In this document: in pieces, positions 3,012 through 58,651 of the stretch | How the letters are laid out: every line of letters begins with the position of its first letter | Position numbering within the stretch: position 1 is the first letter of the stretch | IMG/VR virus record: IMGVR_UViG_3300029451_000002 | Location: 1-64,000 of that record | Strand: one strand, 5' to 3' | Source of the DNA: a virus | Length of the DNA: 64,000 nucleotides | The notes under the pieces: generated by a model | Told to the model about the DNA's origin: nothing | Database searches by the model: none | What the model saw: the letters and a program-made list of their open reading frames with translations, nothing else | Position numbers and translations under genes: made by a program

Positions 3012-3268
3012 TGAAAATAGAACCAAGTGAGTTCTTGCCGATAGGTAATGAGTTTCAGAAAATCTTTGGAATAAGCTTTGGAAAATTCATAGATATGCGG
3101 TTTCTTTTAGCGAGAAAAGAGTTAGTCTTCAATCTGCTGAAGTTCACAGATTGGCTTGAAGAGTGCTATCCGGATGAGTGTTCCATTGATGGAGTGAGTT
3201 ACAATGCGGTTGTCGAGCGAAAATTTGGCAAGCGAGGGGTTAAAATGATAAAGAAACTATTGCAATGA
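3011..3268 (+). CDS. hypothetical protein
   Basis: ATG overlaps the upstream stop. Confidence 0.45.
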   Translation: MKIEPSEFLPIGNEFQKIFGISFGKFIDMRFLLARKELVFNLLKFTDWLEECYPDECSIDGVSYNAVVERKFGKRGVKMIKKLLQ

Positions 3269-3987
3269 AGTATATGGGTAGCAAGGCTAGAATCGTGCAT
3301 GAAATATTGCCGATTATGCTTGATAAAGAACATGATACGTTTGTAGATGCTTTCTGTGGTGGCTGTAGCGTTATTGAGAACGTTCCGGACACGTATCGAA
3401 GGATTGCCAACGATAAGAATAGGTATCTTATCGAAATGTGGAAGTTTCAGAATGATGGGTTTGTCTTCAACCATATTAGTAAGACGTTGTATAACTTTGC
3501 AAGAGACTGCTATCACGGAAAGAATAAATTCTTCACAGAAGCAGGTGTCGGACTAATTGGCTTTATGGCGAGCTTTAATGGACGTTTCTTTGATGGTGGC
3601 TATAGCGGACATAATGTTGTCGGCAAGAACGGAAAGGCAAGAGATTACATAAGGGAGCAGATAGAAAATACAATGTGTGATGTGCCTCTTCTCAAAGGTG
3701 TCGAGTTTTATAGCGGCAGTTATGATGAACTTGTGATACCGGATAGGAGTATAGTGTATTGCGATTTGCCTTACAAAGCTACGAAAAAGTATGATGTATC
3801 AAAGAATTTCGATTACGAAAGATTCTATATATGGTGCATGGAAATGGCTAGAAGAGGTCATAAGGTATTTATCAGCGAGTATCAGATGCCCCAAGAGTTC
3901 AGATGTGTTTGGGAAAAGGAAGTAACAAACTCTCTTAACCCGAATATAACAAAGAGACCAGTCGAAAGGTTGTTTACAATTGATTAG
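3265..3987 (+). CDS. dam: DNA N6-adenine methyltransferase, D12/Dam class
   Basis: N-terminal MGSKARIV (the Y-GSK SAM motif) and the DLPY catalytic motif in VYCDLPYKAT. Confidence 0.8.
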   Translation: MKYMGSKARIVHEILPIMLDKEHDTFVDAFCGGCSVIENVPDTYRRIANDKNRYLIEMWKFQNDGFVFNHISKTLYNFARDCYHGKNKFFTEAGVGLIGFMASFNGRFFDGGYSGHNVVGKNGKARDYIREQIENTMCDVPLLKGVEFYSGSYDELVIPDRSIVYCDLPYKATKKYDVSKNFDYERFYIWCMEMARRGHKVFISEYQMPQEFRCVWEKEVTNSLNPNITKRPVERLFTID

Positions 3988-24722: not shown

Positions 24723-24837
24723 GGTGATAGTTTTTGTTTTTCACAATATAGATAAGTGTTGTTAAACTGAGTGCTAATTTTTGGTAGAGTGGAATATAAT
24801 AGTTATCTTTGTAGTCGAATTTCAAACTTATAAGGAT

Positions 24838-25734
24838 ATGAAGATATTAGAACCGAAATATGAAATCCTATCCCAAGGCGAGGGTATGGATGGAGTTTAC
24901 AAGCAGATAGAGTTGTGCGGTCGAACTTGCTATGCGTCAAGTATGAAGATAGGCAAAGACAGCGCAAAGCCTTTCGTTGAGCGTATGGTAAGCAGCAACC
25001 ATCTTGCCATGTGTGAGCATGGAACGATTTACCTCCATGTAGCCTATGAAGAAGGATTTTTTGTGCCGGAGTCTTTATTGGTCAAGCACTATCGTGAGAA
25101 CAAATATTCAAAGGTGATGCAGATAGGTAACGATTACTATATCACAACCAACTACAGAGTGATAGTTGAAAATAATTGGTTTGAGGATTTGGACTATATC
25201 TGCGAGCCTACGGAATGGCATGAGAAGCGAATAACCGTCCGCTTTACTACTCAGATTGCGGTAAGTAGAGAGGCTAACAGACATCGTGTAGATTCCGTAG
25301 CGGAACAAAGCACTAGATATTGCAACTATAGTAAGGATAAGTTCGGAGGCGAGATTGCTATCAACAAACCAAAGTGGGTTGGTGAAGATGATGCGGTTAA
25401 TCCATCGTCTTTTGATGGTGGAACATTTGTTGACCTATCAAAGAACATCGGTAGTTATGAGCATTGGAGTCCGGTAGAAAAATGGTGGTTTGCCAATAGA
25501 GTATGTGAAATGATGTATTTGTCTTTGGTTAAGGATGATGGTTTAAAGCCACAAGATGCGAGAACTGTTCTTCCTCTTGATACCAACACGGAGTTGATTC
25601 ATACCGCATTCGTGAGTGATTGGCTTCATTTCTTCGATTTGCGATCAAAAGGAACTACTGGAAAGCCTCATCCAGATATTGAGGTCTTGGCAACCCCATT
25701 GATGAATGAGTTCAAGGAACGAGGTTTGATTTAA
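24838..25734 (+). CDS. thyX: Flavin-dependent thymidylate synthase ThyX
   Basis: ThyX motif RHR-x7-S in REANRHRVDSVAEQSTRY; ATG at 24838 with a TATCTTTG box at about 24803. Confidence 0.8.
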   Translation: MKILEPKYEILSQGEGMDGVYKQIELCGRTCYASSMKIGKDSAKPFVERMVSSNHLAMCEHGTIYLHVAYEEGFFVPESLLVKHYRENKYSKVMQIGNDYYITTNYRVIVENNWFEDLDYICEPTEWHEKRITVRFTTQIAVSREANRHRVDSVAEQSTRYCNYSKDKFGGEIAINKPKWVGEDDAVNPSSFDGGTFVDLSKNIGSYEHWSPVEKWWFANRVCEMMYLSLVKDDGLKPQDARTVLPLDTNTELIHTAFVSDWLHFFDLRSKGTTGKPHPDIEVLATPLMNEFKERGLI

Positions 25735-40439: not shown

Positions 40440-40500
40440 AAGTATTAAAAGCACTAAAATGCTTGCAAGTTAGCGAAATATTATTTATCTTTGCAAGCGC
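40440..40500 (+). promoter_or_regulatory. Promoter (TATCTTTG) before the small membrane-protein genes and methyltransferase island
   Basis: aatgcttgcaagttagcgaaatattatttatctttgcaagc. Confidence 0.5.
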
Positions 40501-40646
40501 AGAACAAAAAAGGATAAAATGGCGATTTAAGAAATTGATAAGATATTAGAGACACGAAACCCGATGGACTATACCGAAAGGCAGTCCGAGTCACTATTCC
40601 TTTGACTTTGCAATCGGTAGTTTCGTGTTTTTGTGTTTAAAATAAG

Positions 40647-40949
40647 ATGCAAGACGTAAGGTTGATATTCGAGATACTGGTTTCCATGTTGCTTTGCGTT
40701 TGTCTCATATTGCTTGCTGTAAGTAGATATAGGCAAAAGAAAAAACGTGAAGAACCGGAGCGAAAGGAAATGGACTTGATAGACTTCTTTTCTTTGGGAG
40801 GAGTTGCCTATTATTGGAACAAAGGTGGTAAGCAGCAGAAATGCTACACATACGAAGAATTTCTGAAAATCAAGGCTGACTACGTGGAGCTTTGGTTGAA
40901 TCAGAACAGATATATTTTTAACTCTCAATTAGATTGCGATGATATATAG
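40647..40949 (+). CDS. small single-pass membrane protein
   Basis: LVSMLLCVCLILLAV TM helix. Confidence 0.4.
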   Translation: MQDVRLIFEILVSMLLCVCLILLAVSRYRQKKKREEPERKEMDLIDFFSLGGVAYYWNKGGKQQKCYTYEEFLKIKADYVELWLNQNRYIFNSQLDCDDI

Positions 40950-41169
40950 AGTATTTGTTTTGTTTCCGACAATAGTAGTATCAGATGGTATTGTTGGTAT
41001 AGCTTGGCTAGGAAAGTTTTTTAGCTGGCGATATGGAAAGAACAAGAAAAAGAGCAAGAATGTGTCCTTAATGATAGGATATAACACAGGAATGTCTCTT
41101 AAGTCAAAAATAGACGATAACGCTGCGGATGATTATTTAAGACGCATTGTCGAAGAAAACAGAATCTAA
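40939..41169 (+). CDS. small single-pass membrane protein
   Basis: VFVLFPTIVVSDGIVGIAWL TM helix. Confidence 0.4.
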   Translation: MIYRVFVLFPTIVVSDGIVGIAWLGKFFSWRYGKNKKKSKNVSLMIGYNTGMSLKSKIDDNAADDYLRRIVEENRI

Positions 41170-41263
41170 ATTCAAGGGTTAGAGTCCCTTTTTTACAACC
41201 ATATTACTTGTGGTTATTTTTATACATCGGTTTTTATTAACGATTGTTTTTTATGGTAGATAA

Positions 41264-42370
41264 ATGTATAAAAACGAGCACAAGTTCCCTTATAGATGGA
41301 CTAAAAAAGATGCTAATTTCACAAAAGACAAAGGTAAGGTGATGTCTTGCTTTTGTTGTGGAGGTGGAAGTTCCTTTGGTTACAAACTAGCTGGCTACGA
41401 TGTTGTAGCCTGTAATGAGATAGACCCAAAGGTTATGAAGATGTACTTGAAGAATCACGATGTCAAGTATTCTTTCAATTGTGATATTCGTGAGTTGATT
41501 ACCAATATCAATATGGGGGGGCATATTATGAAAGAAGAGTTGCATAATTTGGATATATTGGATGCTAGTTTCCCATGTTCTGTATTCAGTATTGCAGGTG
41601 ACCGCCAAAAGGCTTGGGGAAAGGAAAAAGTATTCCGAGAAGGTCAGAAGGCGCAAAGGCTTGACGATTTGGCTTTCTACTCTATTGACCTTGCTAAAGA
41701 ACTAAAGCCAAAGGTGGTGGTTTTTGAGAATGTCCAAGGTTTGTTGCAAGGTGAAGCTATCGAGTACGTGAAAGAGATTTACAAGCAGATGGATAATGCC
41801 GGATATATCTTGCAGCATTGGTTGCTTAATGCACGTAATATGGGTGTTCCTCAGAATCGACCTAGGGTGTTCTTTCTAGGATTACGCAAAGACCTTTGCG
41901 AGCCGTTTATGGTTCAGAAGGATTTGTTCGAGCGAGTGCCTAAGATAGATATGGACTTCAACGAGAAAGAAATTGTCTTGGATGAGTTCTCGGACTATAA
42001 TGGAAGACAGATTCCTAAAGGAATGATGAAGTATTGGGAGTATAGAAACGAAAAGGACAATTCTATCGGTGATATTGTCAAGCGGATGGATAATCGTCTT
42101 TCTATGTTCAATAATATGTTTCTTAAAAAGAACAAGGTATGCAATACCATATCAGCAATGGAAGATAGACTTGTGTATTATGATAATCCAAGTTATCTTT
42201 CAGCACATGATACGATTTTAGCATCAACATTTCCGATGGATTATGACTTTAATGGCATGAAACCTTGGTTTGCTTGCGGAATGTGTGTTCCTCCTGTTAT
42301 GATGGCTAATGTAGCTACAAGAATCTGGGATTGTTGGTTATCAAAGATTAAAAAGGAGGAATGCGCATGA
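41264..42370 (+). CDS. DNA C5-cytosine methyltransferase
   Basis: Motif I FCCGGGSSFG, motif IV FPCSVFSIAG, motif VI VVFENVQGL, motif VIII QNRPRVFF. Confidence 0.85.
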   Translation: MYKNEHKFPYRWTKKDANFTKDKGKVMSCFCCGGGSSFGYKLAGYDVVACNEIDPKVMKMYLKNHDVKYSFNCDIRELITNINMGGHIMKEELHNLDILDASFPCSVFSIAGDRQKAWGKEKVFREGQKAQRLDDLAFYSIDLAKELKPKVVVFENVQGLLQGEAIEYVKEIYKQMDNAGYILQHWLLNARNMGVPQNRPRVFFLGLRKDLCEPFMVQKDLFERVPKIDMDFNEKEIVLDEFSDYNGRQIPKGMMKYWEYRNEKDNSIGDIVKRMDNRLSMFNNMFLKKNKVCNTISAMEDRLVYYDNPSYLSAHDTILASTFPMDYDFNGMKPWFACGMCVPPVMMANVATRIWDCWLSKIKKEECA

Positions 42371-43104
42371 TAACAGCAAGTATGACATCGGGAGAGATGC
42401 GTAGAGTACGAAACTTAGATGAAGCTAGAATCTATGAGTTTCAGATGCGAAAAGCTAATGAGCTTAAACGTGAAATGAGAAAGCAGAACGTAAGACAAAT
42501 AACAAAGACCTTTGAGCTTGCTACACCTAATGCCGATTATTTCATCGTTGTAGGTGTAAAACATGGCGATGTATTTGCTTCCGGTTTGTTCATTTATCTG
42601 AAGGAAACCAACGAGTATATTCCTATGAGTAGAAACGAGGGGTATAGCGAAGATTGTTTTGCTATGAGCGTTCATTTTCTGAAGAGATTTGCAGAAAGGT
42701 TTTTGAAAAAAGACTTACCGATTCTCAAGATATTGCAAAAGATATATACATCGTTTACAGGTGCTGTTCAGCTCTATAGTGATGACAAGACAAGAAGAGT
42801 GGTATTTGCTATTCCGGAAGGGCTTATACTCACAGAATACGAGCAAGAAAAGCATATCATCCATTACAAAACCTTTGTAAGCATGGATATGCTAAAGAAG
42901 ACACAGAAGCGAAGTTATGAGAAGATAAGTGCATTTCTCATGGAGTCTTGTCAGCAAATAGCTAAAGCAAGAGACACCGGAAATGACGAAAGGCTGTGCG
43001 TTGTGTACAGAAGGTTTTACAATGATATTGATTTGCTAGATACAAAGGAGGCGCAAGCCATATATTCAAGTTTCTTTGAAAAAGGAGGTAACAATGAAAG
43101 ATAA
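42361..43104 (+). CDS. hypothetical protein, start overlaps the C5-methyltransferase stop
   Basis: 10-nt overlap with the C5-methyltransferase stop; 247 aa; no recognised motif. Confidence 0.45.
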   Translation: MRMITASMTSGEMRRVRNLDEARIYEFQMRKANELKREMRKQNVRQITKTFELATPNADYFIVVGVKHGDVFASGLFIYLKETNEYIPMSRNEGYSEDCFAMSVHFLKRFAERFLKKDLPILKILQKIYTSFTGAVQLYSDDKTRRVVFAIPEGLILTEYEQEKHIIHYKTFVSMDMLKKTQKRSYEKISAFLMESCQQIAKARDTGNDERLCVVYRRFYNDIDLLDTKEAQAIYSSFFEKGGNNER

Positions 43105-43597
43105 ATGTATAACAAGGTTTCTTGGTGATATAAAGCCTATAAAGAATTACGAAAGGTATTATGTTAGCAAGCTGGGACATGTTTTTACTATTGGGAGAAC
43201 GTCTCAATTAAAGGAAATCGTACCTTGCAAGACACCAAAAGGTTATCTGAAGGTATGGCTTTACAAGAACGGAAAGCGCAAGATGTTTTATATCCATCGT
43301 TTGGTAGCTCAGGCTTTCTTGGAGAATCCAGAAGCGTTGCCGATGGTGAATCATAAGGATTTCGACAAGACGAATAACGATGTAGACAACTTGGAGTATT
43401 GCACCGCAAGATACAATGTGATTTATTCTGCTATAGCAAAGAAAACCTCTTCCGAATATTTGGGTGTGACTTGGAATAAGAGTGTAAGAAAATGGCAAGC
43501 GCAGTATCAGATAGGTAAAAAGAAAATATATATAGGTTGCTTTGATACGCAACAAGAGGCTCATGAAGCTTATGTTAACGCTATAAAAGAGATTTGA
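43094..43597 (+). CDS. HNH endonuclease with AP2 DNA-binding domain (homing-endonuclease-like)
   Basis: NHKDFDKTNNDVDNLEYCTARYN (HNH_3-like) plus EYLGVTWNKSVRKWQAQYQIGKKKIYIGCFDTQQEAHEAY (AP2 domain). Confidence 0.65.
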   Translation: MKDKCITRFLGDIKPIKNYERYYVSKLGHVFTIGRTSQLKEIVPCKTPKGYLKVWLYKNGKRKMFYIHRLVAQAFLENPEALPMVNHKDFDKTNNDVDNLEYCTARYNVIYSAIAKKTSSEYLGVTWNKSVRKWQAQYQIGKKKIYIGCFDTQQEAHEAYVNAIKEI

Positions 43598-43598
43598 T

Positions 43599-44312
43599 AT
43601 GCTTGAATTTGATAGAATATACAATTCCGACTGCATAGAAGGAATGAAACAAATAGAGAGCGGGAAAGTAGATTTAATTGTTACTGACCCACCATATTGT
43701 ATCTCCTATAAGACGGGACGGAGAGCAGACGGCCATCGTTTTTCGAAGGAAATACTCAATGACGATAATGAGCAATTGATTATTGATTATATGAGCGAAT
43801 GCTACCGGATTTTGAAGGATGATAGTGCTGCTTATATCTTCTGTAGTGCCAAGACCTTGGACTTTTTTATGCAACAAGCGAGGAACGCAGGGTTTACCAT
43901 TAAGAATGTGCTCATTTGGCGAAAGAACAACCATACGGCTGGAGATTTAGATGCGCAATATGGTCAATGTTACGAGCCAATCCTGTACTTGAATAAAGGC
44001 AGACGAATCATAAACGGCAAGCGTTTGGAGGACGTGTGGGACTTTGATAGAGTTCCATCAGATAAATTGGTACATCAGAACGAGAAGCCAATCCCCTTGC
44101 TAATGCAATGCATCTTGAAATCATCGAACGAAGGAGATTTGGTGTTTGATGGCTTTATGGGCAGCGCAAGTACTGCTCTGGCTTGTATGCGGACAAATCG
44201 GAATTACCTTGGTTTTGAATTGGATGAGGATTATTTCAAGGTGGCACAAAGAAGAATTAAGGAAGAATTGTTTAATCAAAAAGATATGTTTGGATATGCT
44301 GGAGTTAAATAG
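43599..44312 (+). CDS. DNA amino-methyltransferase (N6A/N4C, PF01555-like)
   Basis: DLIVTDPPY (motif IV) before FDGFMGSASTALAC (motif I). Confidence 0.8.
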   Translation: MLEFDRIYNSDCIEGMKQIESGKVDLIVTDPPYCISYKTGRRADGHRFSKEILNDDNEQLIIDYMSECYRILKDDSAAYIFCSAKTLDFFMQQARNAGFTIKNVLIWRKNNHTAGDLDAQYGQCYEPILYLNKGRRIINGKRLEDVWDFDRVPSDKLVHQNEKPIPLLMQCILKSSNEGDLVFDGFMGSASTALACMRTNRNYLGFELDEDYFKVAQRRIKEELFNQKDMFGYAGVK

Positions 44313-45012
44313 AATTTATCAAGGTGATTGTCGAAAGCTTTTAAAGCTGATTGATAGTGATAGCATAGACCTCGTATGTTCCGATGTGGCTTATCCGGTT
44401 CGGTCTAGGGGTGGCTCAGGGAGTATGGGAGGATATTGGACGGAATCTCAAACAAGAAAGGGCAAGATATTCAAGAGTAACGATATTGATATTTCGGACT
44501 ACATCAATGATTTGTACCGGATATTAAAGGACAGGTCGCATTGCTATCTGATGTGTAATGATTATAATTTAATGCACTTTCTTGATGTGGTAGGAAAGAG
44601 TGAGTTCCATTTTACCAAATGCTTAATATGGGATAAGTGCGCAAAAATATGTGGCCGCTATTATATGGCACAGAAAGAGTATATCATCATGCTACGCAAA
44701 GGTGGTGATAGACCGATAAATGAATGTGGTACATCTGACATTCTGAGTGTTCCTATTCCAACCAACAAGCGCAAGGATAAGGATGGTTTGATTAATCAGA
44801 CTGAAAAACCTGTAAAGTTGATGGAGATATTAATTAGAAACTCGACAAATGTTGGTGATGTTGTTCTAGACCCATTCATGGGGAGCGGTACAACGGCAAG
44901 AGCTTGCGTAAACCTTGAAAGAAAGTATATAGGCTTTGAAATAGACCAGCGTCAAGTAGATTTTGCTAATAACGAATTAAAGAATATGAGTAGGCAGTTA
45001 AGTCTGTTTTGA
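44296..45012 (+). CDS. DNA methyltransferase-like protein with degenerate catalytic motif
   Basis: SAM motif LDPFMGSGTTARAC present, but motif IV reads DLVCSDVAY instead of (D/N/S)PPY. Confidence 0.6.
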   Translation: MLELNRIYQGDCRKLLKLIDSDSIDLVCSDVAYPVRSRGGSGSMGGYWTESQTRKGKIFKSNDIDISDYINDLYRILKDRSHCYLMCNDYNLMHFLDVVGKSEFHFTKCLIWDKCAKICGRYYMAQKEYIIMLRKGGDRPINECGTSDILSVPIPTNKRKDKDGLINQTEKPVKLMEILIRNSTNVGDVVLDPFMGSGTTARACVNLERKYIGFEIDQRQVDFANNELKNMSRQLSLF

Positions 45013-45016
45013 AACT

Positions 45017-45241
45017 ATGGATATGTGCAAGGTGTTTTGTTGCAATCCTGTTGTAAGAAATGGGAATAAAGAAACAACGGATGCTCTTATAAGAGCTATG
45101 AGAGACGAAGCCTTAAAACGAGGGTTGGTACGTGATGAATTGATAGGTTTTTGCAACCGATTCTTGAGAGAAGGCGAAATCAAAGCTTGTATAGAGCATT
45201 TGCTAGATAATTTCAAACGTTATTTTTGGAGGTATCATTGA
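45017..45241 (+). CDS. hypothetical protein
   Basis: ATG ORF. Confidence 0.4.
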   Translation: MDMCKVFCCNPVVRNGNKETTDALIRAMRDEALKRGLVRDELIGFCNRFLREGEIKACIEHLLDNFKRYFWRYH

Positions 45242-45242
45242 T

Positions 45243-45872
45243 ATGAGAAGAAGAAAGTTGAACAAGTCTCCAGTGCTAGGCTTCTGCGGATTTGTTATCG
45301 GTTACGAATGCAAGGAAAAGGGAATAAAGCTGATGGAGTGCGATAAGGCGCAAGCAGATGCAATCATAGTTCCTCATCACTTTTCACACAAGGTAACGAA
45401 GAATAGTTGCTTGAATCTTTTGGTATTGTATAAGGATAAGATAAGGGGTGCAATGCAAATAGGGTATGGAATCCGACCTCACATCAAGACTGAAAAGGGC
45501 GAAGTGTTGGATTACCATCAAGTGAGGGAATTTGACAGAATGTGGTTGTCTGATGATATGCCAAAGTTTAGCGAGACGATTTGCCTATCTCTCTTGCATA
45601 AGTATATTAGGGCAACACATAAGGAAATCAAGTACCTTATATCTTATGCCGATACGTCCATAGGTAACAAGGGAACTATATATAAAGCTGCAAACTATGA
45701 GCATATTGATACCATTAAGGCAGATTTCTATGTGTTACCAAGTGGTGAGCGTGTGCATCCGGTTACGATGTGGCATCGGCACAAGACAAGAGCATGGGAG
45801 GTTCTAACGAAGCTATACCCAGGAATAAAAAAGGCAGAAGGGTTTCAACTTAAATTTCTGAAGAAGTTATGA
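45243..45872 (+). CDS. hypothetical protein within the methyltransferase island
   Basis: 209 aa; RGAMQIGYG resembles an acyl-CoA-binding GNAT motif. Confidence 0.4.
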   Translation: MRRRKLNKSPVLGFCGFVIGYECKEKGIKLMECDKAQADAIIVPHHFSHKVTKNSCLNLLVLYKDKIRGAMQIGYGIRPHIKTEKGEVLDYHQVREFDRMWLSDDMPKFSETICLSLLHKYIRATHKEIKYLISYADTSIGNKGTIYKAANYEHIDTIKADFYVLPSGERVHPVTMWHRHKTRAWEVLTKLYPGIKKAEGFQLKFLKKL

Positions 45873-46087
45873 AGAAAAGAAATAAATGTATTCCTCGTCA
45901 TTTGCATCCAGATCCTGAGCATTGGGTTAGAAAAGGTCAATCTTGGAAGGCGAAGGTAGCTTATGAAAGCGAGGATGATGCTTGGGAATTTCTGAATCAG
46001 AATCCGAAGTTACGGGCACAAGGTATGGCGGTGTATCGGTGTAGGATATGCAACAAATATCATATAGGGCACAAGAACAACAAATAA
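45869..46087 (+). CDS. small zinc-ribbon-like protein
   Basis: CRICNKYH plus His pairs. Confidence 0.35.
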   Translation: MKKRNKCIPRHLHPDPEHWVRKGQSWKAKVAYESEDDAWEFLNQNPKLRAQGMAVYRCRICNKYHIGHKNNK

Positions 46088-46102
46088 AAAATATAAACAG
46101 CA

Positions 46103-46384
46103 ATGATAGTAATAAAAATCAAAACATGGAAAGACTGGAAGAAGGACTTTCTTGATTGGGTGCAAGCACCTCGACGCAGAACTTGCAAGGATTATGTAGA
46201 CTATATGGAGGCTTTGCAAAATCGTGTTCTCTACAAAATAATAGCCGATACTTGCGATAAATACGACAATATGCGTGATGGGCAAATCCAAGAAATCACA
46301 GAAGCAGTCGAAAAATGCGTGGCTGAGTGTGCTAAAGAAGCACGCAAGTTAATCGATGAATGTCAGCCCGCAAAATTCTTCTAA
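46103..46384 (+). CDS. hypothetical protein
   Basis: ATG ORF. Confidence 0.4.
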   Translation: MIVIKIKTWKDWKKDFLDWVQAPRRRTCKDYVDYMEALQNRVLYKIIADTCDKYDNMRDGQIQEITEAVEKCVAECAKEARKLIDECQPAKFF

Positions 46385-46446
46385 GGCTGTAACTTTCATT
46401 ACACTGCCGTGAAATGGTTTAACTGATAGATTTAGAACAACAAAGT

Positions 46447-47220
46447 ATGATAGAGCTGAATAAGATATATAATGAGGATTGTCTAGTGGGAATGAAACAG
46501 ATTCCGGACGTAAGTGTGGATTGTATTATCTGCGATTTGCCTTATGGCGTTCTCAATAAAAAGAGTGAGGGCGGTGGCTGGGATAGCATTATTCCGTTTG
46601 AACCATTGTGGAAAGAATATCTGCGCATAACAAAACCTAATGCAGCGATTATTCTTTTCTGTCAAGGTATGTATACCGCACAGCTTATGATGTCGCAGCC
46701 GAAACTTTGGAAATATAATCTTATTTGGAGCAAGCAGCGGGTAACAGGCTTTTTGAATGCCAACAAGATGCCTCTGCGCTCGCATGAGGATATTGCCGTA
46801 TTCTATCGGAAACAACCTATCTACAATCCTCAGATGGTAAAATGTGCGCCACATCAAAGAAATCATCGAAGAGGCGACGGTTCTCATAGTTTGAAACGAG
46901 GTTGCTATGGCGATCATAAAGAAGTGCCTACTATCGTATCAGATGAGAAATTTCCAAAGAGCATTCTCTGCTTCGACAAGGAACATTCTGCCGACACTTT
47001 CCACCCCACTCAAAAGCCAGTCGCTCTTATTCAGTACCTCATCCGTACCTACTCCAACGAGGGCGACACCATCTTAGACAACTGCATGGGCAGCGGCACT
47101 ACCGCCATCGCCTGCATCAGAGAAAAGAGGAACTTCATCGGCTTTGAGATGAACAAAGAATATTACGACAAGGCTTGTAAGCGCATTAAGTTAGAAATGA
47201 TGCAACCAAGCCTATTCTAA
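46447..47220 (+). CDS. DNA amino-methyltransferase (N6A/N4C, PF01555-like)
   Basis: DCIICDLPYGV (motif IV) before LDNCMGSGTTAIAC (motif I). Confidence 0.8.
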   Translation: MIELNKIYNEDCLVGMKQIPDVSVDCIICDLPYGVLNKKSEGGGWDSIIPFEPLWKEYLRITKPNAAIILFCQGMYTAQLMMSQPKLWKYNLIWSKQRVTGFLNANKMPLRSHEDIAVFYRKQPIYNPQMVKCAPHQRNHRRGDGSHSLKRGCYGDHKEVPTIVSDEKFPKSILCFDKEHSADTFHPTQKPVALIQYLIRTYSNEGDTILDNCMGSGTTAIACIREKRNFIGFEMNKEYYDKACKRIKLEMMQPSLF

Positions 47221-47239
47221 AACGTAAATAGTTGAGAAT

Positions 47240-47626
47240 ATGAAAAAAGAAGATAGACTTAAAATATATCGCAAATACGATGGGCATTGTGCTTATTGCG
47301 GCAAGAGTATAGAGTATAAGGATATGCAGGTTGACCATCTTGTTCCGAAGAATCGAGGTTGTTACTCTCGGTGGAGCGACAAGGAGGGAAAGTTTGTCGT
47401 ATCCCATGGCGATGAATCCATGGAGAACTATATGCCATCTTGCAGGTCTTGTAATCTTCGTAAGCGTGATATGAGTTTGGAACAATTTCGCTCAGAGATT
47501 ACTAGACAGGCTAAAGGATTGCTTAATGGTAAGGCTTCTTTCCAAGTAAAGATGTCGCTTGCTTATGGTTTAATCGAAGAGCACTTTGATAGACAAATTG
47601 AGTTCTACTTTGAGAAATTTAAATAG
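47240..47626 (+). CDS. HNH endonuclease (free-standing, homing-type), copy 1
   Basis: DGHCAYCG...QVDHLVPKNRG...NYMPSCRSCN; about 70% identical to 55752..56165. Confidence 0.75.
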   Translation: MKKEDRLKIYRKYDGHCAYCGKSIEYKDMQVDHLVPKNRGCYSRWSDKEGKFVVSHGDESMENYMPSCRSCNLRKRDMSLEQFRSEITRQAKGLLNGKASFQVKMSLAYGLIEEHFDRQIEFYFEKFK

Positions 47627-47634
47627 TTGGGAAT

Positions 47635-47919
47635 ATGAAGAAGTTTAAGAAGTCGATAGAGATTAGCACTGAGAATATTTCAGACGTTCTTCAAGTGCCA
47701 ATTGTTACAAGTTTATACAAGACTAAGAATTTTAAAAATCCTTGTCTTGAAGGTAGTAGCGTTCCTTATGATACTATAGCACTGATGTATGTTCATATCG
47801 AAGGCTTTGATAGCGATTTTTGTATTAACCAAGGCAACATTCTCGCTCTTGACATTTGTGATACTTGGTATGCCTTTTCAAGAGCAGGGTGGGAGAAACA
47901 TAAAAACGATGAGGTATGA
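47635..47919 (+). CDS. hypothetical protein
   Basis: ATG ORF. Confidence 0.4.
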   Translation: MKKFKKSIEISTENISDVLQVPIVTSLYKTKNFKNPCLEGSSVPYDTIALMYVHIEGFDSDFCINQGNILALDICDTWYAFSRAGWEKHKNDEV

Positions 47920-48326
47920 AGAAGAAAGGATATTACGAATACGACCAGCCCATTTACCCACACTTATTGTGTGTTGGGGTTGGGTTGCAGTTTGAGGATG
48001 CAAAGAAAGCATTCTTGAATAATGATGGTACGGATATTGAAAAGTACGATTTTTTAAATGGTGATGGATTTACTTATTACGGACTTCACATAAGAGAAAC
48101 AGGAAGAAAGTGCGTTCTTGTTTTATTCAGTAGCAGTAAGGCTATGCGTATGAATGTAATTTGTCATGAGGCTAGTCACGCTTGTGATGCTATCGAGGGT
48201 AATATTGAAATGGAACATGGTGGAGAACCATCTGCCTATCTGATAGGTTGGATAGCATCATGTATCAATAAGGCTCGTTTGGAAATTGGAGATTTTGTTG
48301 AAATCGTAGATAAGGAAGAAAAATAG
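47916..48326 (+). CDS. small putative zinc metallopeptidase (HExxH)
   Basis: ICHEASHACD contains HEASH; 136 aa. Confidence 0.3.
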   Translation: MKKKGYYEYDQPIYPHLLCVGVGLQFEDAKKAFLNNDGTDIEKYDFLNGDGFTYYGLHIRETGRKCVLVLFSSSKAMRMNVICHEASHACDAIEGNIEMEHGGEPSAYLIGWIASCINKARLEIGDFVEIVDKEEK

Positions 48327-48397
48327 CCCAAAGGCAAAATACCCTTTGGTGTTTACCCCATCACTATATATAATAATGTAGTGGTGGGGATTTTTGT
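48327..48397 (+). terminator. Tandem terminator hairpins (cccaaagg...cctttgg; ccccatcacta...tagtggtgggg plus T-run)
   Basis: Second hairpin identical to 5525-5566. Confidence 0.65.
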
Positions 48398-48469
48398 GTT
48401 AACGTCAGCAAATTATTTGTTTGTATTATTATAGAGTGTTAAAAGCTATAAGAAATACATTAAATAACT

Positions 48470-48549
48470 TGCATATTTCGAATATTCTTTGTATCTTTGC
48501 AATGTAATTAAGAAACAAGGTTACTAATTTTAAAAAGGTGAGACACACC
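48470..48549 (+). promoter_or_regulatory. Promoter (TATCTTTG at 48492-48499) plus conserved leader motif (48537-48549)
   Basis: Cassette copy 4. Confidence 0.6.
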
Positions 48550-55493: not shown

Positions 55494-55786
55494 AGATTAG
55501 ACTAGCAAAGAAGATAATGAAGCAAGCTCGTCATCTAAGTACGGCAAGTGATTATTGGTACAGAAGATTAAGAGATTTTGAGTACAAAATATGCTATGGC
55601 TTTGTTGGTAAAAAAGACCACCGCATCACCAAGGCGATAAGTTTAACAAGTAAAAAGAGAAAAATGAGAATAAAAGATACTGACACTTTTGTGGATTTAA
55701 GTAAAGAAGATAAGGATGCTTTAGATACTTGGGCACATTATTGTAAACAACATGAAGGTTATGAAAGAAATGAAGAAGGAAACTAG
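55490..55786 (+). CDS. hypothetical protein
   Basis: ATG ORF. Confidence 0.4.
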   Translation: MKIRLAKKIMKQARHLSTASDYWYRRLRDFEYKICYGFVGKKDHRITKAISLTSKKRKMRIKDTDTFVDLSKEDKDALDTWAHYCKQHEGYERNEEGN

Positions 55787-56165
55787 ACTAAAGGTATATC
55801 GTATGTATGATGGTCATTGTGCCTATTGTGGCAGGACTATAGAGTACAAGGATATGCAAGTAGACCATATTGTTCCCAAAAACAGAGGAATGTATTCCAG
55901 ATGGGATGAGAAACAAGGCAAGTTCGCAGTAACTCAAGGCGAGGATAGCTTAGAGAACTATATGCCAGCTTGCCGTGCTTGTAACTTCCGTAAGAGGGAT
56001 ATGACCTTAGAACAGTTCAGAGCAGAAATAAAGAGGCAGGCGGTTGGCTTGCTAAGTGGCACTGCCAAGTTTCAAATGAAGATGAGTATTGCCTATGGTC
56101 TTATTATTCCTCAGTTCGATAAGAAGGTAGTGTTTTATTTTGAGAAAGTTAAACGTAAAGATTAA
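55752..56165 (+). CDS. HNH endonuclease (free-standing, homing-type), copy 2
   Basis: Paralog of 47240..47626; sits immediately upstream of rtcB. Confidence 0.75.
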   Translation: MKVMKEMKKETRLKVYRMYDGHCAYCGRTIEYKDMQVDHIVPKNRGMYSRWDEKQGKFAVTQGEDSLENYMPACRACNFRKRDMTLEQFRAEIKRQAVGLLSGTAKFQMKMSIAYGLIIPQFDKKVVFYFEKVKRKD

Positions 56166-56170
56166 GAGAT

Positions 56171-57376
56171 ATGAATGAGTTTACAAAGATTTTCGCAAAG
56201 ACAATAGAAGATGAAGCTATCAAACAGATAGAAACCCTATCTAATAGCGAGGCTTACAATAGTTGTAAAATAAGAATAATGCCAGATTGCCATGCAGGTA
56301 AAGGATGCACTATTGGCACGGTAATAGAGCTTGATAACAGAGTAGTTCCTAACACTGTTGGAGTAGATATAGGCTGCGGCATGAAAGTCGTAAGACTTGG
56401 TAAAGTTGATATTGACTTGCAGAAATTTGATGAAGCAGTCAATAAGTTGATTCCGTCTGGTTTTAATGTCAACGAGGGAGAAGTATCAGCCTGCATAAAC
56501 GGATTGGTTGATGGTTGTATGTTTGGCAAATTCCGTGCTTGGGATTGTCTTGACAGCATGGAAATAGTATATCGTTCTGTTGGAAGTCTTGGCGGTGGCA
56601 ATCACTTTATTGAGTTAGATGCAAATGAAGAAGGAGAGAAGTTTCTTGTGATACATACAGGAAGTAGAAACCTTGGTGTTAGGGTATGCAACTATTACCA
56701 AAAACTTGCCTACGAGTATTGCCGTAAGAAAATAGCTGATAAGTCTGAGGTTATTGCCAAGCTAAAAAGCGAAGGCAGAGAAAATGAGATACAGAGTGTT
56801 ATTAAGTCATTAGGTACTAAAAATATAAGCAAGGAACTTTCTTACTTGGAAGGTGATTTGCTCAATGACTACCTCAATGATATGCGCATAGTTCAAAAAT
56901 ATGCTGAACGAAACAGAATGATTATCGCCAACAGACTTGTAAATGCTTTAGGTGTAGATATTGATGCTAATTCAGATAAGTATTCTTTTACAACCATTCA
57001 CAACTATATAGATACAGACAAGGGTATATTGCGAAAGGGAGCTATCAGTGCAAAAAAGGATGAGGTAGTCATTATCCCAATGAATATGCGTGATGGTTCT
57101 CTTATCTGCAAGGGAAAAGGTAACAAAGATTGGCTATGCTCTGCCCCTCATGGCGCAGGTAGATTAATGTCTCGTACACAGGCAAAGAAAGAGTTATCTA
57201 TGGATTCTTACAAGAATGAAATGAATGGTATTTATTCCACATCAGTTTGTGAAGAAACCATTGATGAAGCACCTATGGCATACAAGCCAACCGAAGAGAT
57301 TGTTGAGTTAATCAAACCTACGGTTGATGTCATTGATGTCATTAAGCCAATTTACAACTTCAAAGCAAAATTATAA
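56171..57376 (+). CDS. rtcB: RNA 3'-phosphate/5'-OH ligase RtcB
   Basis: MPDCHAGKGCTIG, GVDIGCGM, GGGNHFIELD, HNYID, APHGAGR: the full set of RtcB metal- and GTP-binding motifs. Confidence 0.85.
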   Translation: MNEFTKIFAKTIEDEAIKQIETLSNSEAYNSCKIRIMPDCHAGKGCTIGTVIELDNRVVPNTVGVDIGCGMKVVRLGKVDIDLQKFDEAVNKLIPSGFNVNEGEVSACINGLVDGCMFGKFRAWDCLDSMEIVYRSVGSLGGGNHFIELDANEEGEKFLVIHTGSRNLGVRVCNYYQKLAYEYCRKKIADKSEVIAKLKSEGRENEIQSVIKSLGTKNISKELSYLEGDLLNDYLNDMRIVQKYAERNRMIIANRLVNALGVDIDANSDKYSFTTIHNYIDTDKGILRKGAISAKKDEVVIIPMNMRDGSLICKGKGNKDWLCSAPHGAGRLMSRTQAKKELSMDSYKNEMNGIYSTSVCEETIDEAPMAYKPTEEIVELIKPTVDVIDVIKPIYNFKAKL

Positions 57377-58108: not shown

Positions 58109-58651
58109 TCATTTTATTTCGATAAGCGTTAAAATACAATACCCCAATAAATCTTTATAGCTGTCTAGGACAGGCTCTTCTTTAGCATCCTCGTTCAAAG
58201 TCAGCAAAGAGCAAATACGATTAATCTTCTCTTGCAAATGACCGAAGGCATACGGATAACCATCTTTAGCAAAACATTCAGAAAATGCGTTTCCATACCG
58301 CTTATTTTTGGTTTTGAACAATTCGATTTGCGACTCGATGATGTCGTTATAATCTGAAACAATATACCAAGAGAGCGTAAGCAAGGCTTCCATCGCCATT
58401 ACACTGATATGGCTTCGTAAGGTTTCTTTGTCTTCAGAAGATGCTCGTATCCCATACATAAGACGAAGGAAATTGGCTGCGCTTGAAAATAATCCGAGCT
58501 TTCCGAAGTCCTCCCTTAGAGATGAAACGAAAGTGGCATTATCCTTGCATTCAATCATGTCTGCCAAACGTCTTATCACAAAGATATACTTGTTAGCATA
58601 TTCGCAACACCCATTGTTATTTTGTTCCACCATGTCCGTATCCTCCTCCAC
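58109..58651 (-). CDS. putative MazG-like nucleotide pyrophosphohydrolase
   Basis: KNKRYGNAF...G....L.EKINR pattern resembling the MazG family. Confidence 0.3.
   Translation of the reverse strand: MEEDTDMVEQNNNGCCEYANKYIFVIRRLADMIECKDNATFVSSLREDFGKLGLFSSAANFLRLMYGIRASSEDKETLRSHISVMAMEALLTLSWYIVSDYNDIIESQIELFKTKNKRYGNAFSECFAKDGYPYAFGHLQEKINRICSLLTLNEDAKEEPVLDSYKDLLGYCILTLIEIK

What the first reader, a model, noticed from the sequence alone, without database searches (positions are those of the whole stretch)
41264..47626. DNA-modification island: C5-cytosine methyltransferase, three amino-methyltransferases (one with degenerate catalytic motif), HNH-AP2 and HNH endonucleases
Within 6.4 kb sit a C5-cytosine methyltransferase with all four diagnostic motifs, three PF01555-type methyltransferases (43599, 44296, 46447), an HNH-AP2 homing-type endonuclease (43094), a free HNH endonuclease (47240) and four uncharacterised ORFs (42361, 45243, 45869, 46103). 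A Dam-like enzyme is also encoded at 3265. Two points stand out. First, the 44296..45012 protein keeps the SAM motif but has DVAY in place of the catalytic (D/N/S)PPY tetrapeptide, suggesting an inactive or altered-specificity paralog. Second, the 247-aa ORF 42361..43104 overlaps the C5-methyltransferase stop by 10 nt and has no recognisable motif. The 209-aa ORF 45243..45872 has a GNAT-like R-G-x-x-x-G-x-G stretch, reminiscent of Mom-type DNA acyl-modification enzymes. The island has its own promoter (about 40440-40500) and is preceded by two small membrane proteins. Multiple methyltransferases imply broad protection against host restriction systems. The HNH genes suggest the island is itself mobile.
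Basis: partly seen in the sequence, partly recalled or inferred. Interest (0 to 1): 0.6.

Follow-up and report, generated by a model that had tools for sequence, protein, structure and literature searches.

The report
Phage anti-restriction DNA-modification operon with Mom
A phage, probably of the gut bacterium Segatella (Prevotella) copri, packs a cytosine-C5 enzyme, three adenine methyltransferases and a Mom-type tRNA-dependent adenine modifier into one operon that most likely hides its DNA from host restriction enzymes; the families are all known, but several copies carry unusual, conserved active-site variants.

Summary

All sit in one tightly packed operon. It runs from a Bacteroidetes-type promoter at 40463-40493 to a strong terminator at 48356-48399. 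The phage is very common in gut metagenomes, and its best host lead is Segatella copri.

Three readings need correction.
- **DVAY enzyme:** it is not decaying. The motif is kept in 79/79 lineage copies and in relatives down to about 59% identity, with dN/dS 0.055.
- **Mobility:** the island is not mobile as a unit. Its core is fixed in 106 unique islands, and only single cassettes come and go. The DLPY methyltransferase was found in none of them at this site.
- **"Classical" C5 enzyme:** its closest solved relative is CmoX, the phage cytosine carboxymethyltransferase. It has Met where methyltransferases have Asn and CmoX has Arg.

The 247-aa ORF (really 245 aa) founds an unannotated family whose central domain is predicted to have a RelE/ParE fold.

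Verdict: a new member of known kinds (phage self-modification for anti-restriction), with several testable active-site oddities. Target motifs and chemistry remain inferred.

The parts
40463..40493 (+). Bacteroidetes-type promoter (-33 TTG at 40463-40465; -7 TATCTTTG at 40486-40493)
   Evidence: the only intergenic TAnnTTTG upstream of the block, with TTG 23 nt before it. The same arrangement occurs in L012 and L027. A twin (CTTGCA...TATCTTTG) at 48492 starts the next unit.
40647..41169 (+). Two small single-pass membrane proteins (40647-40949, 40939-41169), the first genes of the operon
   Evidence: translations. No family hit. Conserved in all relatives.
41264..42370 (+). Cytosine-C5 DNA alkyl(methyl)transferase of the CmoX-related clade. 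Catalytic SFPC (Cys105), ENV, QxRxR. Motif X is G339-M340-C-V-P-P.
   Evidence: PF00145 1.2e-41. Best PDB is 8YF3 SpCmoX, 3.2e-34 over the full length. Met340 aligns with CmoX R350 / HhaI N304. The same GM[SC]VPP occurs in Bacteroides, Flavobacterium and Rhodobacteraceae phage homologues. dN/dS 0.06.
42367..43104 (+). orf245: unannotated family protein, translationally coupled (ATGA) to the C5 gene. The central domain (about residues 97-172) is predicted to have a RelE/ParE-like fold.
43094..43597 (+). HNH-AP2 (NUMOD4) free-standing nuclease, a fixed resident of the island
   Evidence: HNH_3 1.8e-06, AP2 3.1e-06, NUMOD4 1.1e-04. PHROG 59 3.7e-38. Present in 106/106 islands. dN/dS 0.09.
43599..44312 (+). 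Beta-class amino-methyltransferase A, canonical D30-P-P-Y, probable m6A enzyme
   Evidence: PF01555 1.5e-37. NCBIfam adenine-specific models. PDB 5hek 1.3e-23, CcrM 6e-20. Present in 105/106 islands.
44296..45012 (+). Beta-class amino-methyltransferase B with D30-V-A-Y (44383-44394) in place of DPPY. Motif I FMGSGTT is intact.
   Evidence: PF01555 1.6e-29. Motif distribution DPPY 80 / DVAY 23 / DVPY 15. Tree. dN/dS 0.055 and DVAY in 79/79 lineage copies.
45017..45241 (+). orf74, small protein of unknown function between methyltransferase B and Mom
   Evidence: No family hit. Present in 102/106 islands, absent in the L013 lineage.
45243..45872 (+). Mom-family GNAT, predicted aminoacyl-tRNA-dependent modifier of adenine N6 in dsDNA
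   Evidence: PF25680 2.9e-35. PHROG 1384. Mu Mom 8bv8 1.2e-23. Residue mapping. Present in 105/106 islands. dN/dS 0.09.
45869..46087 (+). orf72, small C-x2-C-x3-H-x2-H protein overlapping the Mom stop (ATGA)
   Evidence: PHROG 14788/15216, both of unknown function. No similarity to Mu Com beyond the CxxC. Present in 104/106 islands.
46103..46384 (+). orf93, optional cassette of unknown function
   Evidence: Present in 65/106 islands. No family hit.
46404..47212 (+). Inserted cassette carrying beta-class amino-methyltransferase C (gene 46447-47220), motif IV D30-L-P-Y
   Evidence: PF01555 2.3e-34. Best PDB is M.BceJIV 8urk/9c3u, 9e-24. Absent from all 106 related islands. Junctions mapped against L027. 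A 54%-identical CDLPYG homologue lies next to Mom in L188.
47240..47626 (+). HNH nuclease, near-fixed cassette with a paralogue at 55752-56165
   Evidence: PF01844 1.6e-08. Present in 99/106 islands. Paralogue: about 70% nt and 72% aa identity.
47635..48326 (+). orf94 and orf136 (HExxH motif), the last genes of the operon
   Evidence: no family hit. HEASH seen in the translation.
48356..48399 (+). Intrinsic-terminator-like hairpin (14-bp stem) plus T-run, closing the operon
3265..3987 (+). Separate D12-class (Dam-like) adenine methyltransferase, motif IV DLPY
   Evidence: PF02086 2.7e-15. Translation.

Best explanation
The region is the core of one roughly 7.9-kb operon (promoter 40463-40493, terminator 48356-48399) of a siphovirus-like phage that probably infects Segatella/Prevotella. 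Its job is to chemically disguise the phage's own DNA after replication so that host restriction enzymes cannot cut it.

Five enzymes act in parallel on different bases and contexts:
- A CmoX-related cytosine-C5 transferase, most likely making 5-methylcytosine with SAM.
- Three beta-class amino-methyltransferases (motif IV DPPY, DVAY, DLPY). All three most likely make N6-methyladenine at different sites.
- A Mom-family GNAT. By homology with Mu Mom, it takes an aminoacyl group (glycine in Mu) from charged tRNA, puts it on N6 of adenine in double-stranded DNA, and the group rearranges to N6-carbamoylmethyl-adenine.

The DVAY and DLPY enzymes keep the Asp and Tyr that hold the flipped adenine. 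The main-chain carbonyl of the second residue is the other ligand of N6, so loss of the proline side chain need not abolish catalysis.

The set is diversified by swapping whole methyltransferase cassettes between conserved flanks. The window's DLPY enzyme is such a recent gain.

The HNH-AP2, the HNH, orf245 (RelE/ParE-like fold) and the small ORFs are co-transcribed passengers or accessories. Their roles are not shown.

What is shown: gene identities, operon layout, conservation, purifying selection and cassette flux. What is inferred: all chemistry, all target sites and the anti-restriction purpose.
For: - **Families:**
- **Mom mechanism and key residues:** PMC13219725. H58, R111, D149 and Y159 equivalents are conserved here and in 115-116 of 116 subfamily members.
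- **Motif IV:** in M.BceJIV the adenine N6 bonds to the Asp59 side chain and the Pro60 main-chain carbonyl and stacks on Tyr62 (PMC11380664). D and Y are kept in both DVAY and DLPY.
- **DVAY and DVPY are conserved and recurrent**. A DVAY homologue is the only methyltransferase seen in its stretch of an unrelated phage-like contig.
- **DLPY is conserved** in a 54%-identical homologue.
- **Purifying selection:** dN/dS 0.055-0.16 for all six main genes.
- **One operon:** promoter, terminator, gaps of 94 nt or less and several overlaps.
- **Fixed core, variable cassettes:** 106 unique islands.
- **No CmoA-like gene:** among the window ORFs of at least 200 aa, those on the gene-coding strand were all scanned and none is CmoA-like. 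No conserved partner gene sits next to Met-clade C5 homologues in cultured phages. This favours plain SAM use.
- **Host:** a 99%-identical contig in a Segatella copri MAG, Prevotella MAGs for family relatives, and C5 homologues in Bacteroides and Flavobacterium phages.
Against: - No methylome or nucleoside data exist for this phage. No target motif could be predicted.
- The Mom homologue lacks Mu residues whose mutation abolished or drastically reduced activity: R151 (Ser here, never Arg in 116 relatives) and W181 (Arg). It has Thr for S124 and a shorter C-terminal tail. Its donor or product may therefore differ.
- The C5 enzyme lacks the near-universal motif X Asn.
- GATC, GGCC and CGCG are almost eliminated from the genome. 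Avoidance carries much of the anti-restriction load there, and the enzymes evidently do not protect those sites.
- The host assignment rests on binned MAG contigs.
Confidence: 0.72

Rival explanations
1. The C5 enzyme is not a methyltransferase. It is a CmoX-clade enzyme that moves a larger or different group from a SAM derivative onto cytosine C5, giving a handle for hypermodification. The coupled orf245, or the amidoligase at 33145-34080, might be a downstream partner.
For: - The best solved relative is the carboxymethyltransferase SpCmoX (3.2e-34, full length). The next is M.HaeIII at 4e-17 over the N-terminal half only.
- Both positions that line the transferable group differ from classical enzymes: PC-S instead of PC-Q, and Met340 instead of Asn.
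- PMC12783734 shows that this position decides the cofactor (R350, and the engineered M.MpeI N374K).
- A PF12224 amidoligase is encoded in the same genome.
Against: - Neither CmoX signature is met: SFPC instead of SPPC, and Met instead of Arg350. R350N CmoX was dead with both cofactors, and Met cannot bind a carboxylate.
- No CmoA-like gene was found in the window.
- Met-clade homologues in cultured phages have no shared neighbour. That fits a universal cofactor such as SAM.
- The amidoligase lies 7 kb away, beside head genes.
Confidence: 0.12
2. The DVAY protein is catalytically dead. It survives as a DNA-binding, regulatory or partner subunit, for example guiding Mom or another methyltransferase.
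For: - Both prolines of the catalytic tetrapeptide are lost. The Pfam match starts only at profile position 32 and so skips motif IV.
- It lies immediately upstream of Mom in this lineage, directly abutting it in L013.
- An inactive-partner precedent exists in METTL14 (EPPL), from general knowledge.
Against: - Asp, Tyr and an intact SAM motif are retained.
- The motif variant is recurrent (DVPY in about 10 lineages) and sits inside an otherwise DPPY family.
- A DVAY homologue stands alone, without Mom or another methyltransferase in the stretch fetched.
- Mom homologues occur without it.
- Strong purifying selection fits either reading but argues against decay.
Confidence: 0.1
3. The block is a selfish mobile island that spreads between phages by the HNH-AP2 and HNH nucleases (homing), the methyltransferases being cargo.
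For: - Two free-standing HNH genes lie inside the block.
- The 47240 HNH is missing from 7 of 106 islands with clean flanks and has a paralogue at 55752.
- The methyltransferase cassettes are clearly exchanged.
- The DVAY allele has dS 1.3, against 0.1-0.35 for its neighbours. This implies recombination.
Against: - HNH-AP2, C5 and orf245 are present in 106/106 islands and also in the relatives with about 65% identical HNH-AP2 and orf245 proteins. All are under purifying selection.
- No related phage lacking the island was found, and no island boundary repeats were seen.
- The variation is at the level of single genes, not of the island.
Confidence: 0.08
4. The enzymes serve regulation or host takeover rather than protecting phage DNA. 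Examples are epigenetic control of phage gene expression or packaging, modification of host DNA, or toxicity.
For: - Mom is toxic when mis-expressed in Mu (abstract of PMC3378877).
- orf245 has a toxin-type fold.
- The phage already avoids many restriction sites.
Against: - Stacking five enzymes of different specificity with rapid cassette turnover is the pattern expected from an arms race with diverse host restriction systems.
- Mom's demonstrated role is restriction evasion (PMC13219725).
Confidence: 0.08

Closest known systems
Bacteriophage Mu Mom (PF25680; PDB 8bv8), the Gly-tRNA(Gly)-dependent maker of N6-carbamoylmethyl-dA
   Same: - Clear homology: 122 bits to the Pfam model and E 1.2e-23 to Mu Mom.
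- The H58, R111, D149 and Y159 equivalents are conserved, and Y59 is conservatively Phe.
- It is phage-encoded and set among anti-restriction genes.
   Different: - 209 aa against 231 aa.
- Thr for S124, Ser for the essential R151, Arg for W181, no W48.
- A shorter C-terminal tail in place of the HTH-like insertion.
- No Com-like or Dam/OxyR-type control is evident.
- It sits inside a methyltransferase operon instead of at a genome end.
- It belongs to a large short-Mom subfamily (759 hits) that shares these substitutions.
SpCmoX (PDB 8YF3), the DNA cytosine C5-carboxymethyltransferase of Synechococcus phage S-B43
   Same: - Best solved relative over the full length.
- Shared PC-S-x-FS and VPP-x-MM signatures.
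- Phage origin.
   Different: - About 30% identity.
- SFPC instead of SPPC.
- Met340 instead of Arg350.
- No CmoA or CmoY (asparagine-synthetase-type ligase) found in the window.
Beta-class orphan amino-methyltransferases (M.BceJIV 8URK, CcrM 6PBD, H. pylori 5HEK) and phage multi-methyltransferase clusters
   Same: - Motif order IV then I, with an FxGSGTT SAM motif.
- Size of about 240 aa and no cognate nuclease.
- Several copies stacked in a phage, as also seen in L008.
   Different: Two of the three copies have DVAY or DLPY instead of (D/N/S)PP(Y/F). Their targets are unknown.
Mu-like prophages that carry a non-specific adenine methyltransferase at the mom position (hin1523, nma1821, hia5; PMC3299994)
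   Same: Mom and beta-class adenine methyltransferases are used as alternative or complementary anti-restriction devices at one locus.
   Different: Here both kinds are present together, and more than one methyltransferase is stacked. Non-specificity was not tested.
RelE/ParE toxin superfamily (for orf245)
   Different: - No sequence signal (hhalign E 0.16).
- 245 aa, with extra N-terminal beta-meander and C-terminal helical domains.
- No adjacent antitoxin.
- The conserved residues (H103, R107, E110, R111) lie on the first helix, not at the RelE catalytic positions.

Membership tests
Mom family (PF25680) | Profile match above the curated cut-off and homology to Mu Mom | tested here: met
   122.2 bits against a cut-off of 27.1. 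8bv8 E 1.2e-23.
Mom family (PF25680) | Catalytic R111 and S124 (Mu numbering) | tested here: inconclusive
   R99 matches R111. T112 aligns with S124, and Thr is found in 108/116 subfamily members. The hydroxyl is kept but the residue differs.
Mom family (PF25680) | H58, Y59, D149, Y159 | tested here: met
   H46, F47, D137, Y147.
Mom family (PF25680) | Essential R151, plus W181 and the dimer residue W48 | tested here: not met
   S139, R170 and D34/A36 (which of the two depends on the alignment used). Ser or Thr in 116/116 relatives at the R151 position.
Mom family (PF25680) | HTH-like insertion (Mu 175-209), required for activity | tested here: inconclusive
   A 33-aa basic tail follows the aligned core, against about 44 aa in Mu.
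Mom family (PF25680) | Gly-tRNA-dependent formation of 6-NcmdA on dsDNA | not testable with these tools
   Needs biochemistry or LC-MS.
C5-cytosine DNA methyltransferase (PF00145) | Motifs I (FxGxG), IV (PC), VI (ENV), VIII (QxRxR) | tested here: met
   FCCGGGS, SFPC105, E155-N-V, Q197-N-R-P-R. PF00145 1.2e-41.
C5-cytosine DNA methyltransferase (PF00145) | Motif X Gly-Asn (HhaI N304) lining the methyl group | tested here: not met
   G339-M340. The same Met is present in all five aligned members of this clade: the window, its relative L013, and phages of Bacteroides, Flavobacterium and Rhodobacteraceae.
CmoX cytosine C5-carboxymethyltransferase | SPPC motif | tested here: not met
   SFPC in the window lineage. 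The 50%-identical homologues do have SPPC.
CmoX cytosine C5-carboxymethyltransferase | Arg350 binding the carboxymethyl group | tested here: not met
   Met340 aligns with R350.
CmoX cytosine C5-carboxymethyltransferase | Phage-encoded CmoA (Cx-SAM synthase) and/or amide ligase nearby | tested here: not met
   No class-I methyltransferase-like ORF among the gene-strand window ORFs of at least 200 aa. Only a PF12224 amidoligase, 7 kb away.
Beta-class amino-methyltransferase (PF01555) | Profile match, motif IV before motif I, FxGSG SAM motif | tested here: met
   All three copies.
Beta-class amino-methyltransferase (PF01555) | Catalytic (D/N/S)PP(Y/F/W) | tested here: not met
   Met by 43599 (DPPY). 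Not met by 44296 (DVAY) or 46447 (DLPY). Both variants are conserved in relatives.
HNH-AP2 homing endonuclease | HNH_3 nuclease plus AP2/NUMOD DNA-binding modules | tested here: inconclusive
   HNH_3 28.0 bits (cut-off 24.8). AP2 27.8 (cut-off 33.3). NUMOD4 22.8 (cut-off 23.4). PHROG 59 3.7e-38.
HNH-AP2 homing endonuclease | Sporadic presence or absence among close relatives (homing) | tested here: not met
   Present in 106/106 unique islands and in relatives whose copy is only about 65% identical.
RelE/ParE toxin superfamily (orf245) | Fold | tested here: met
RelE/ParE toxin superfamily (orf245) | Sequence homology, cognate antitoxin gene, toxin activity | tested here: not met
   No Pfam, PHROG or PADLOC hit. 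hhalign against RelE gives E 0.16. No antitoxin-like neighbour. Activity is not testable here.

The most novel reading that the evidence does not exclude
Several enzymes of this operon may not do the textbook reaction.
- The CmoX-related C5 enzyme has a remodelled cofactor pocket (Gln to Ser, Asn to Met). This is conserved across Bacteroidota phage homologues and one Rhodobacteraceae phage homologue. It could transfer a group other than methyl.
- The short-Mom subfamily never has the Arg151 that is essential in Mu. It could use a different aminoacyl-tRNA or give a different adenine adduct.
- Non-canonical DVAY and DLPY methyltransferases lie next to Mom in two unrelated phages. They could act on, or in concert with, the Mom product.

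Together these would give a so far undescribed combination of DNA hypermodifications in a dominant human-gut phage lineage.
Probability: 0.12. Interest if true: 0.8.

Novelty: new member of a known kind. Interest (0 to 1): 0.42.

Why it matters
Segatella copri is one of the most abundant and strain-diverse human gut bacteria. This phage lineage is very common in gut metagenomes: single 90%-identity protein clusters hold hundreds to over a thousand sequences.

- **Practical value.** Knowing that its DNA probably carries m5C, several m6A patterns and a Mom-type adenine adduct matters for sequencing, cloning, host-range prediction and phage isolation.
- **Natural experiments on textbook motifs.** The conserved DVAY/DVPY/DLPY variants bear on the DPPY motif. 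The Met variant sits at the position that decides methyl versus carboxymethyl transfer in C5 enzymes. Both are of use for enzyme engineering.
- **A way to probe Mom.** The Mom mechanism was solved only in 2026. The short-Mom subfamily offers a way to ask which Mu Mom residues are truly required.

Tried and rejected
2. **Foldseek searches.** afdb50 was not available. The BFVD search gave only one uncharacterised phage protein.
3. **Sequence-level links of orf245 to known families.** All negative: Pfam, PHROG and PADLOC on 60 members, the central domain alone at E up to 10, and hhalign against RelE.
4. **Is orf245 a conserved partner of C5 enzymes?** Rejected. Distant members lie by an Eco57I-type RM gene plus a Schlafen protein, by a TraG coupling protein, by PAPS-reductase phage genes, or by the his operon.
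5. **Obligatory DVAY-Mom pairing.** Rejected.
6. **orf72 as a Com equivalent.** No similarity.
7. **Second orf245 paralogue in the window.** None found.
8. **IMG/VR search for distant orf245 contexts.** It returned only the same lineage.
9. **Rfam.** Only the five tRNAs.
10. **Sigma-70 promoter scan.** Uninformative: 29 found against 26 expected. The Bacteroidetes consensus was used instead.
11. **Papers on M.MpeI N374 variants.** Wang and Kohli 2021 and Loo 2023 are not in the library. Statements on steric engineering of M.HhaI Q82/N304 rest on memory.
12. **Target-site prediction.** Not possible without REBASE.

Full report

Yes. The six-frame ORF list reproduces every ORF at the stated coordinates.

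Pfam results:
- 41264-42370: PF00145 (C5 DNA methylase), 1.2e-41.
- 43599-44312, 44296-45012 and 46447-47220: PF01555, at 1.5e-37, 1.6e-29 and 2.3e-34.
- 43076/43094-43597: HNH_3 plus AP2 plus NUMOD4.
- 47240-47626: PF01844 HNH.
- 45243-45872: PF25680 "Mom protein family", 2.9e-35.

PHROGs agree, including "Mom-like DNA modification protein". The Mom ORF matches the crystal-structure sequence of Mu Mom (8bv8) at 1.2e-23. The separate gene at 3265-3987 is a D12-class (Dam-like) enzyme.

Small corrections:
- The "247-aa" ORF almost certainly starts at 42367. That gives 245 aa and an ATGA overlap with the C5 stop, as in all homologues.
- The HNH-AP2 gene starts at ATG 43094.
- A 74-aa ORF at 45017-45241 was overlooked.
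- The third PF01555 enzyme and the Dam-like enzyme both read DLPY, not DPPY.

**2. Genome and host**

The window has 35-45% G+C. Its genes are mostly on one strand. They include a tape-measure protein, an E-type major capsid protein, a Rha/ANT antirepressor, a helicase and five tRNAs.

- The only GenBank phage relative is an unannotated human-faecal contig, MT835576.
- IMG/VR holds more than 200 contigs of the lineage, typically 63-125 kb.
- A 99%-identical contig is binned in a Segatella copri MAG. More distant relatives of orf245 are in Prevotella genomes.
- The nearest cultured-phage homologues of the C5 enzyme infect Bacteroides, Phocaeicola and Flavobacterium.
- A relative carries a Bacteroidota-type integrase.

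The host is therefore most likely Segatella/Prevotella. This rests on MAG binning and is an inference.

**3. Operon layout**

- The 226-nt gap before the two small membrane-protein genes contains the only intergenic Bacteroidetes-type promoter signal: TTG at 40463-40465 and TAnnTTTG = TATCTTTG at 40486-40493. It is conserved in relatives.
- From 40647 to 48326 the 17 genes are separated by at most 94 nt, and several overlap.
- A 14-bp-stem hairpin with a T-run at 48356-48399 follows the last gene.
- A near-identical promoter-like site at 48492 then opens the next unit.

The unit is larger than the finding, at about 7.9 kb.

**4. The Mom homologue**

A 2026 study showed that Mu Mom transfers glycine from Gly-tRNA(Gly) to N6 of adenine in dsDNA (SAS context). 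The adduct then rearranges to N6-carbamoylmethyl-dA. The study named W48, H58, Y59, R111, S124, D149, R151, Y159, W181 and an HTH-like insertion (175-209) as important (PMC13219725).

I mapped these onto the window protein and 116 full-length relatives.
- Conserved: H58, R111, D149 and Y159. Y59 is Tyr or Phe.
- Changed: S124 is Thr (108/116). R151 is Ser or Thr (116/116, never Arg). W181 is Arg (115/116). W48 is not kept.
- The tail after the aligned core is 33 aa, against about 44 aa in Mu.

The protein therefore belongs to a large, coherent "short-Mom" subfamily (759 hits) that differs from Mu at residues essential in Mu. It is a family member by homology. The same chemistry is the best guess but is not shown. 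No Com-like activator is present.

**5. The three PF01555 enzymes**

All have the beta-class order (motif IV, then motif I) and an intact FxGSGTT motif. NCBIfam and PDB relatives are adenine-specific enzymes: the H. pylori 5HEK enzyme, CcrM and M.BceJIV.

*DVAY enzyme.* Among the 120 best 90%-cluster representatives of its family, motif IV is DPPY in 80, DVAY in 23, DVPY in 15, and DPAY and DSPY in one each.
- In a tree built with the motif columns masked, the clade spanning all 17 full-length DVAY representatives also contains 8 DPPY and 1 DPAY. DVPY appears in about ten separate lineages.
- DVAY is kept in 79/79 lineage copies. dN/dS against L012 is 0.055.
- A 62%-identical DVAY homologue is the only methyltransferase in the 10-kb stretch fetched from an unrelated phage-like contig.

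*Structural rationale.* In the M.BceJIV ternary complex the adenine N6 is held by the Asp side chain and the main-chain carbonyl of the first Pro, and the base stacks on Tyr (PMC11380664). DVAY and DLPY keep Asp and Tyr. The reading "inactive paralogue" is therefore not supported. "Active variant, perhaps with altered kinetics or substrate" is the better one.

*DLPY enzyme.* DLPY is likewise conserved in a 54%-identical enzyme that sits right next to a Mom gene in another phage.

**6. The C5 enzyme is not fully classical**

Its best solved relative is 8YF3 (3.2e-34, full length). The next is M.HaeIII at 4e-17 over the N-terminal half only.

8YF3 is SpCmoX, a phage DNA cytosine C5-carboxymethyltransferase. 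It uses carboxy-SAM made by a phage CmoA. It is defined by SPPC and by Arg350 replacing HhaI Asn304 (PMC12783734).

The window enzyme shares PC-S-x-FS and VPP-x-MM with CmoX. However, it reads SFPC, and it has Met340 at the Asn/Arg position. The same G-M-[SC]-V-P-P is found in the lineage relative L013 (87% identical) and in 50-53% identical enzymes of Bacteroides phage LoVEphage, Flavobacterium phage Fpv5 and a Rhodobacteraceae phage.

It thus fails both CmoX signatures and also lacks the canonical Asn. Three points argue for ordinary SAM use:
- All window ORFs of at least 200 aa on the gene-coding strand were scanned, and none is CmoA-like.
- The cultured-phage homologues share no neighbour.
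- Met cannot bind a carboxylate.

I therefore take 5-methylcytosine as the most likely product, at about 0.8, and flag the pocket as unexplained. From memory, not checked here: Q82 and N304 are the positions enlarged in M.HhaI to accept bulky SAM analogues.

**7. orf245**

It and 60 relatives hit nothing in Pfam, PHROGs or PADLOC. A full HMMER scan found 169 representatives of a family of about 200-250 aa. Invariant residues are H103, R107, R111, G152, T169 and Q180, in the motifs S-x-H-x2-k-R-y-A-E-R and k-T-F-V-S-x-D-M-L-k-x-s-Q.

Distant members sit in Prevotella mobile or defence contexts, not next to C5 enzymes. Within the lineage the gene is fixed and under purifying selection (dN/dS 0.15).

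Best guess: a nucleic-acid-directed accessory (toxin-like or anti-defence), not a modification enzyme. Confidence in this is low.

**8. Mobility**

I compared 106 unique complete islands.

| Gene | Islands with it (of 106) |
|---|---|
| C5, orf245, HNH-AP2 | 106 |
| Methyltransferase A, Mom | 105 |
| orf72 | 104 |
| DVAY enzyme, orf74 | 102 |
| HNH (47240) | 99 |
| orf93 | 65 |
| Extra DPPY methyltransferase between A and DVAY | 13 |
| DLPY methyltransferase of the window | 0 |

- The window's segment 46404-47212 replaces about 37 nt of spacer in relatives.
- The DVAY allele has dS 1.3, against 0.1-0.35 for its neighbours. This points to allele exchange.

The island is therefore a stable part of this phage type. 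It is diversified by cassette swapping, not carried as a self-mobile unit. HNH-AP2 shows no homing-type polymorphism.

**9. What the enzymes do not cover**

Maximal-order Markov expectations show extreme avoidance of some palindromes.

| Site | Observed | Expected |
|---|---|---|
| GATC | 15 | 229 |
| GGCC | 13 | 94 |
| CGCG | 0 | 46 |
| GATATC | 0 | 23 |
| CTGCAG | 0 | 8 |

GCGC and CCGG are not avoided. Avoidance and modification thus work side by side. The Dam-like enzyme is unlikely to be a protective GATC methylase.

**10. Verdict**

It is best described as a new member of known kinds: a phage anti-restriction self-modification operon that combines Mom with stacked orphan methyltransferases.

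The points of real interest are conserved departures from textbook active sites:
- DVAY/DVPY/DLPY in motif IV.
- Met in motif X of a CmoX-related C5 enzyme.
- A Mom subfamily without R151.
- An unannotated family with a predicted RelE/ParE fold.

All chemistry and target sites remain inferred. Methylome and LC-MS data would settle them.

Noticed in passing
window 55752-57376: An RtcB RNA ligase (PF01139, 3e-64) is immediately preceded by an HNH gene that is a paralogue of the island HNH at 47240 (about 70% nt, 72% aa identity). This looks like a tRNA/RNA-repair counter-defence module. It is of interest because Mom consumes charged tRNA.
   Followed up: partly
window 31974-32409: A cluster of five tRNAs: Glu-TTC, Gln-TTG, Tyr-GTA, Lys-TTT and one with an 8-nt anticodon loop ("tggt") that ARAGORN cannot assign. 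There is no tRNA-Gly. From general knowledge, Glu, Gln and Lys are typical targets of anticodon nucleases.
   Followed up: no
window, whole 64 kb: Extreme palindrome avoidance: GATC at 0.07 of expectation (z = -14), GGCC at 0.14, CGCG 0 of 46, GATATC 0 of 23 and CTGCAG 0 of 8. GCGC and CCGG are not avoided. 14 of the 50 GCGC sites lie inside the 6.4-kb island.
   Followed up: partly
window 33145-34080; 24781-25734; 58109-58651 (-): Other genes that may be connected with nucleotide or base modification: a PF12224 Amidoligase_2 (4.6e-34), a ThyX-like protein (PF02511, 2.4e-21, C-terminal half only) right after the tape-measure gene, and a DUF1599 "nucleotide modification associated domain 1" protein (2.4e-05, at the cut-off). 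Amidoligase_2 also occurs near the methyltransferase cluster of the unrelated phage L008/L009.
   Followed up: no
window 47916-48326: orf136, the last gene of the operon, contains an HExxH motif (CHEASHACD) and may be a small zinc metallopeptidase. It has no family hit. Relatives carry 52-62% identical alleles, so it is unusually variable.
   Followed up: no
window 40463-40497 and 40494-40646: The promoter region holds two copies of TTGCAAG (40463-40469, 40491-40497), one over the -33 element and one just after the -7 element. This may be an operator. A roughly 150-nt leader with visible self-complementary stretches precedes the first gene.
   Followed up: no
L085 7233-8334; L072 7233-8107: Two related contigs carry in-island deletions. 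In L085 methyltransferase A appears fused to Mom, with the DVAY gene and orf74 lost. L072 lacks everything from mid-methyltransferase A to orf124. These may be real deletion variants or assembly artefacts.
   Followed up: no
L179 1063-8708; L183 5418-8477; L180 1506-2213: Distant orf245-family genes in Prevotella genomes lie beside a 1302-aa Eco57I/MmeI-type RM methylase plus a Schlafen/AlbA_2 protein, beside a TraG-type coupling protein, and next to the his operon. The family is thus linked to mobile and defence islands.
   Followed up: partly
L013 4166-5252 and 13578-14768: The most divergent colinear relative has Bro-N and AntA genes inserted upstream of the island. It has a Phage_int_SAM_5 integrase about 2.2 kb downstream of Mom. 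This suggests that the lineage is, or was, temperate.
   Followed up: no
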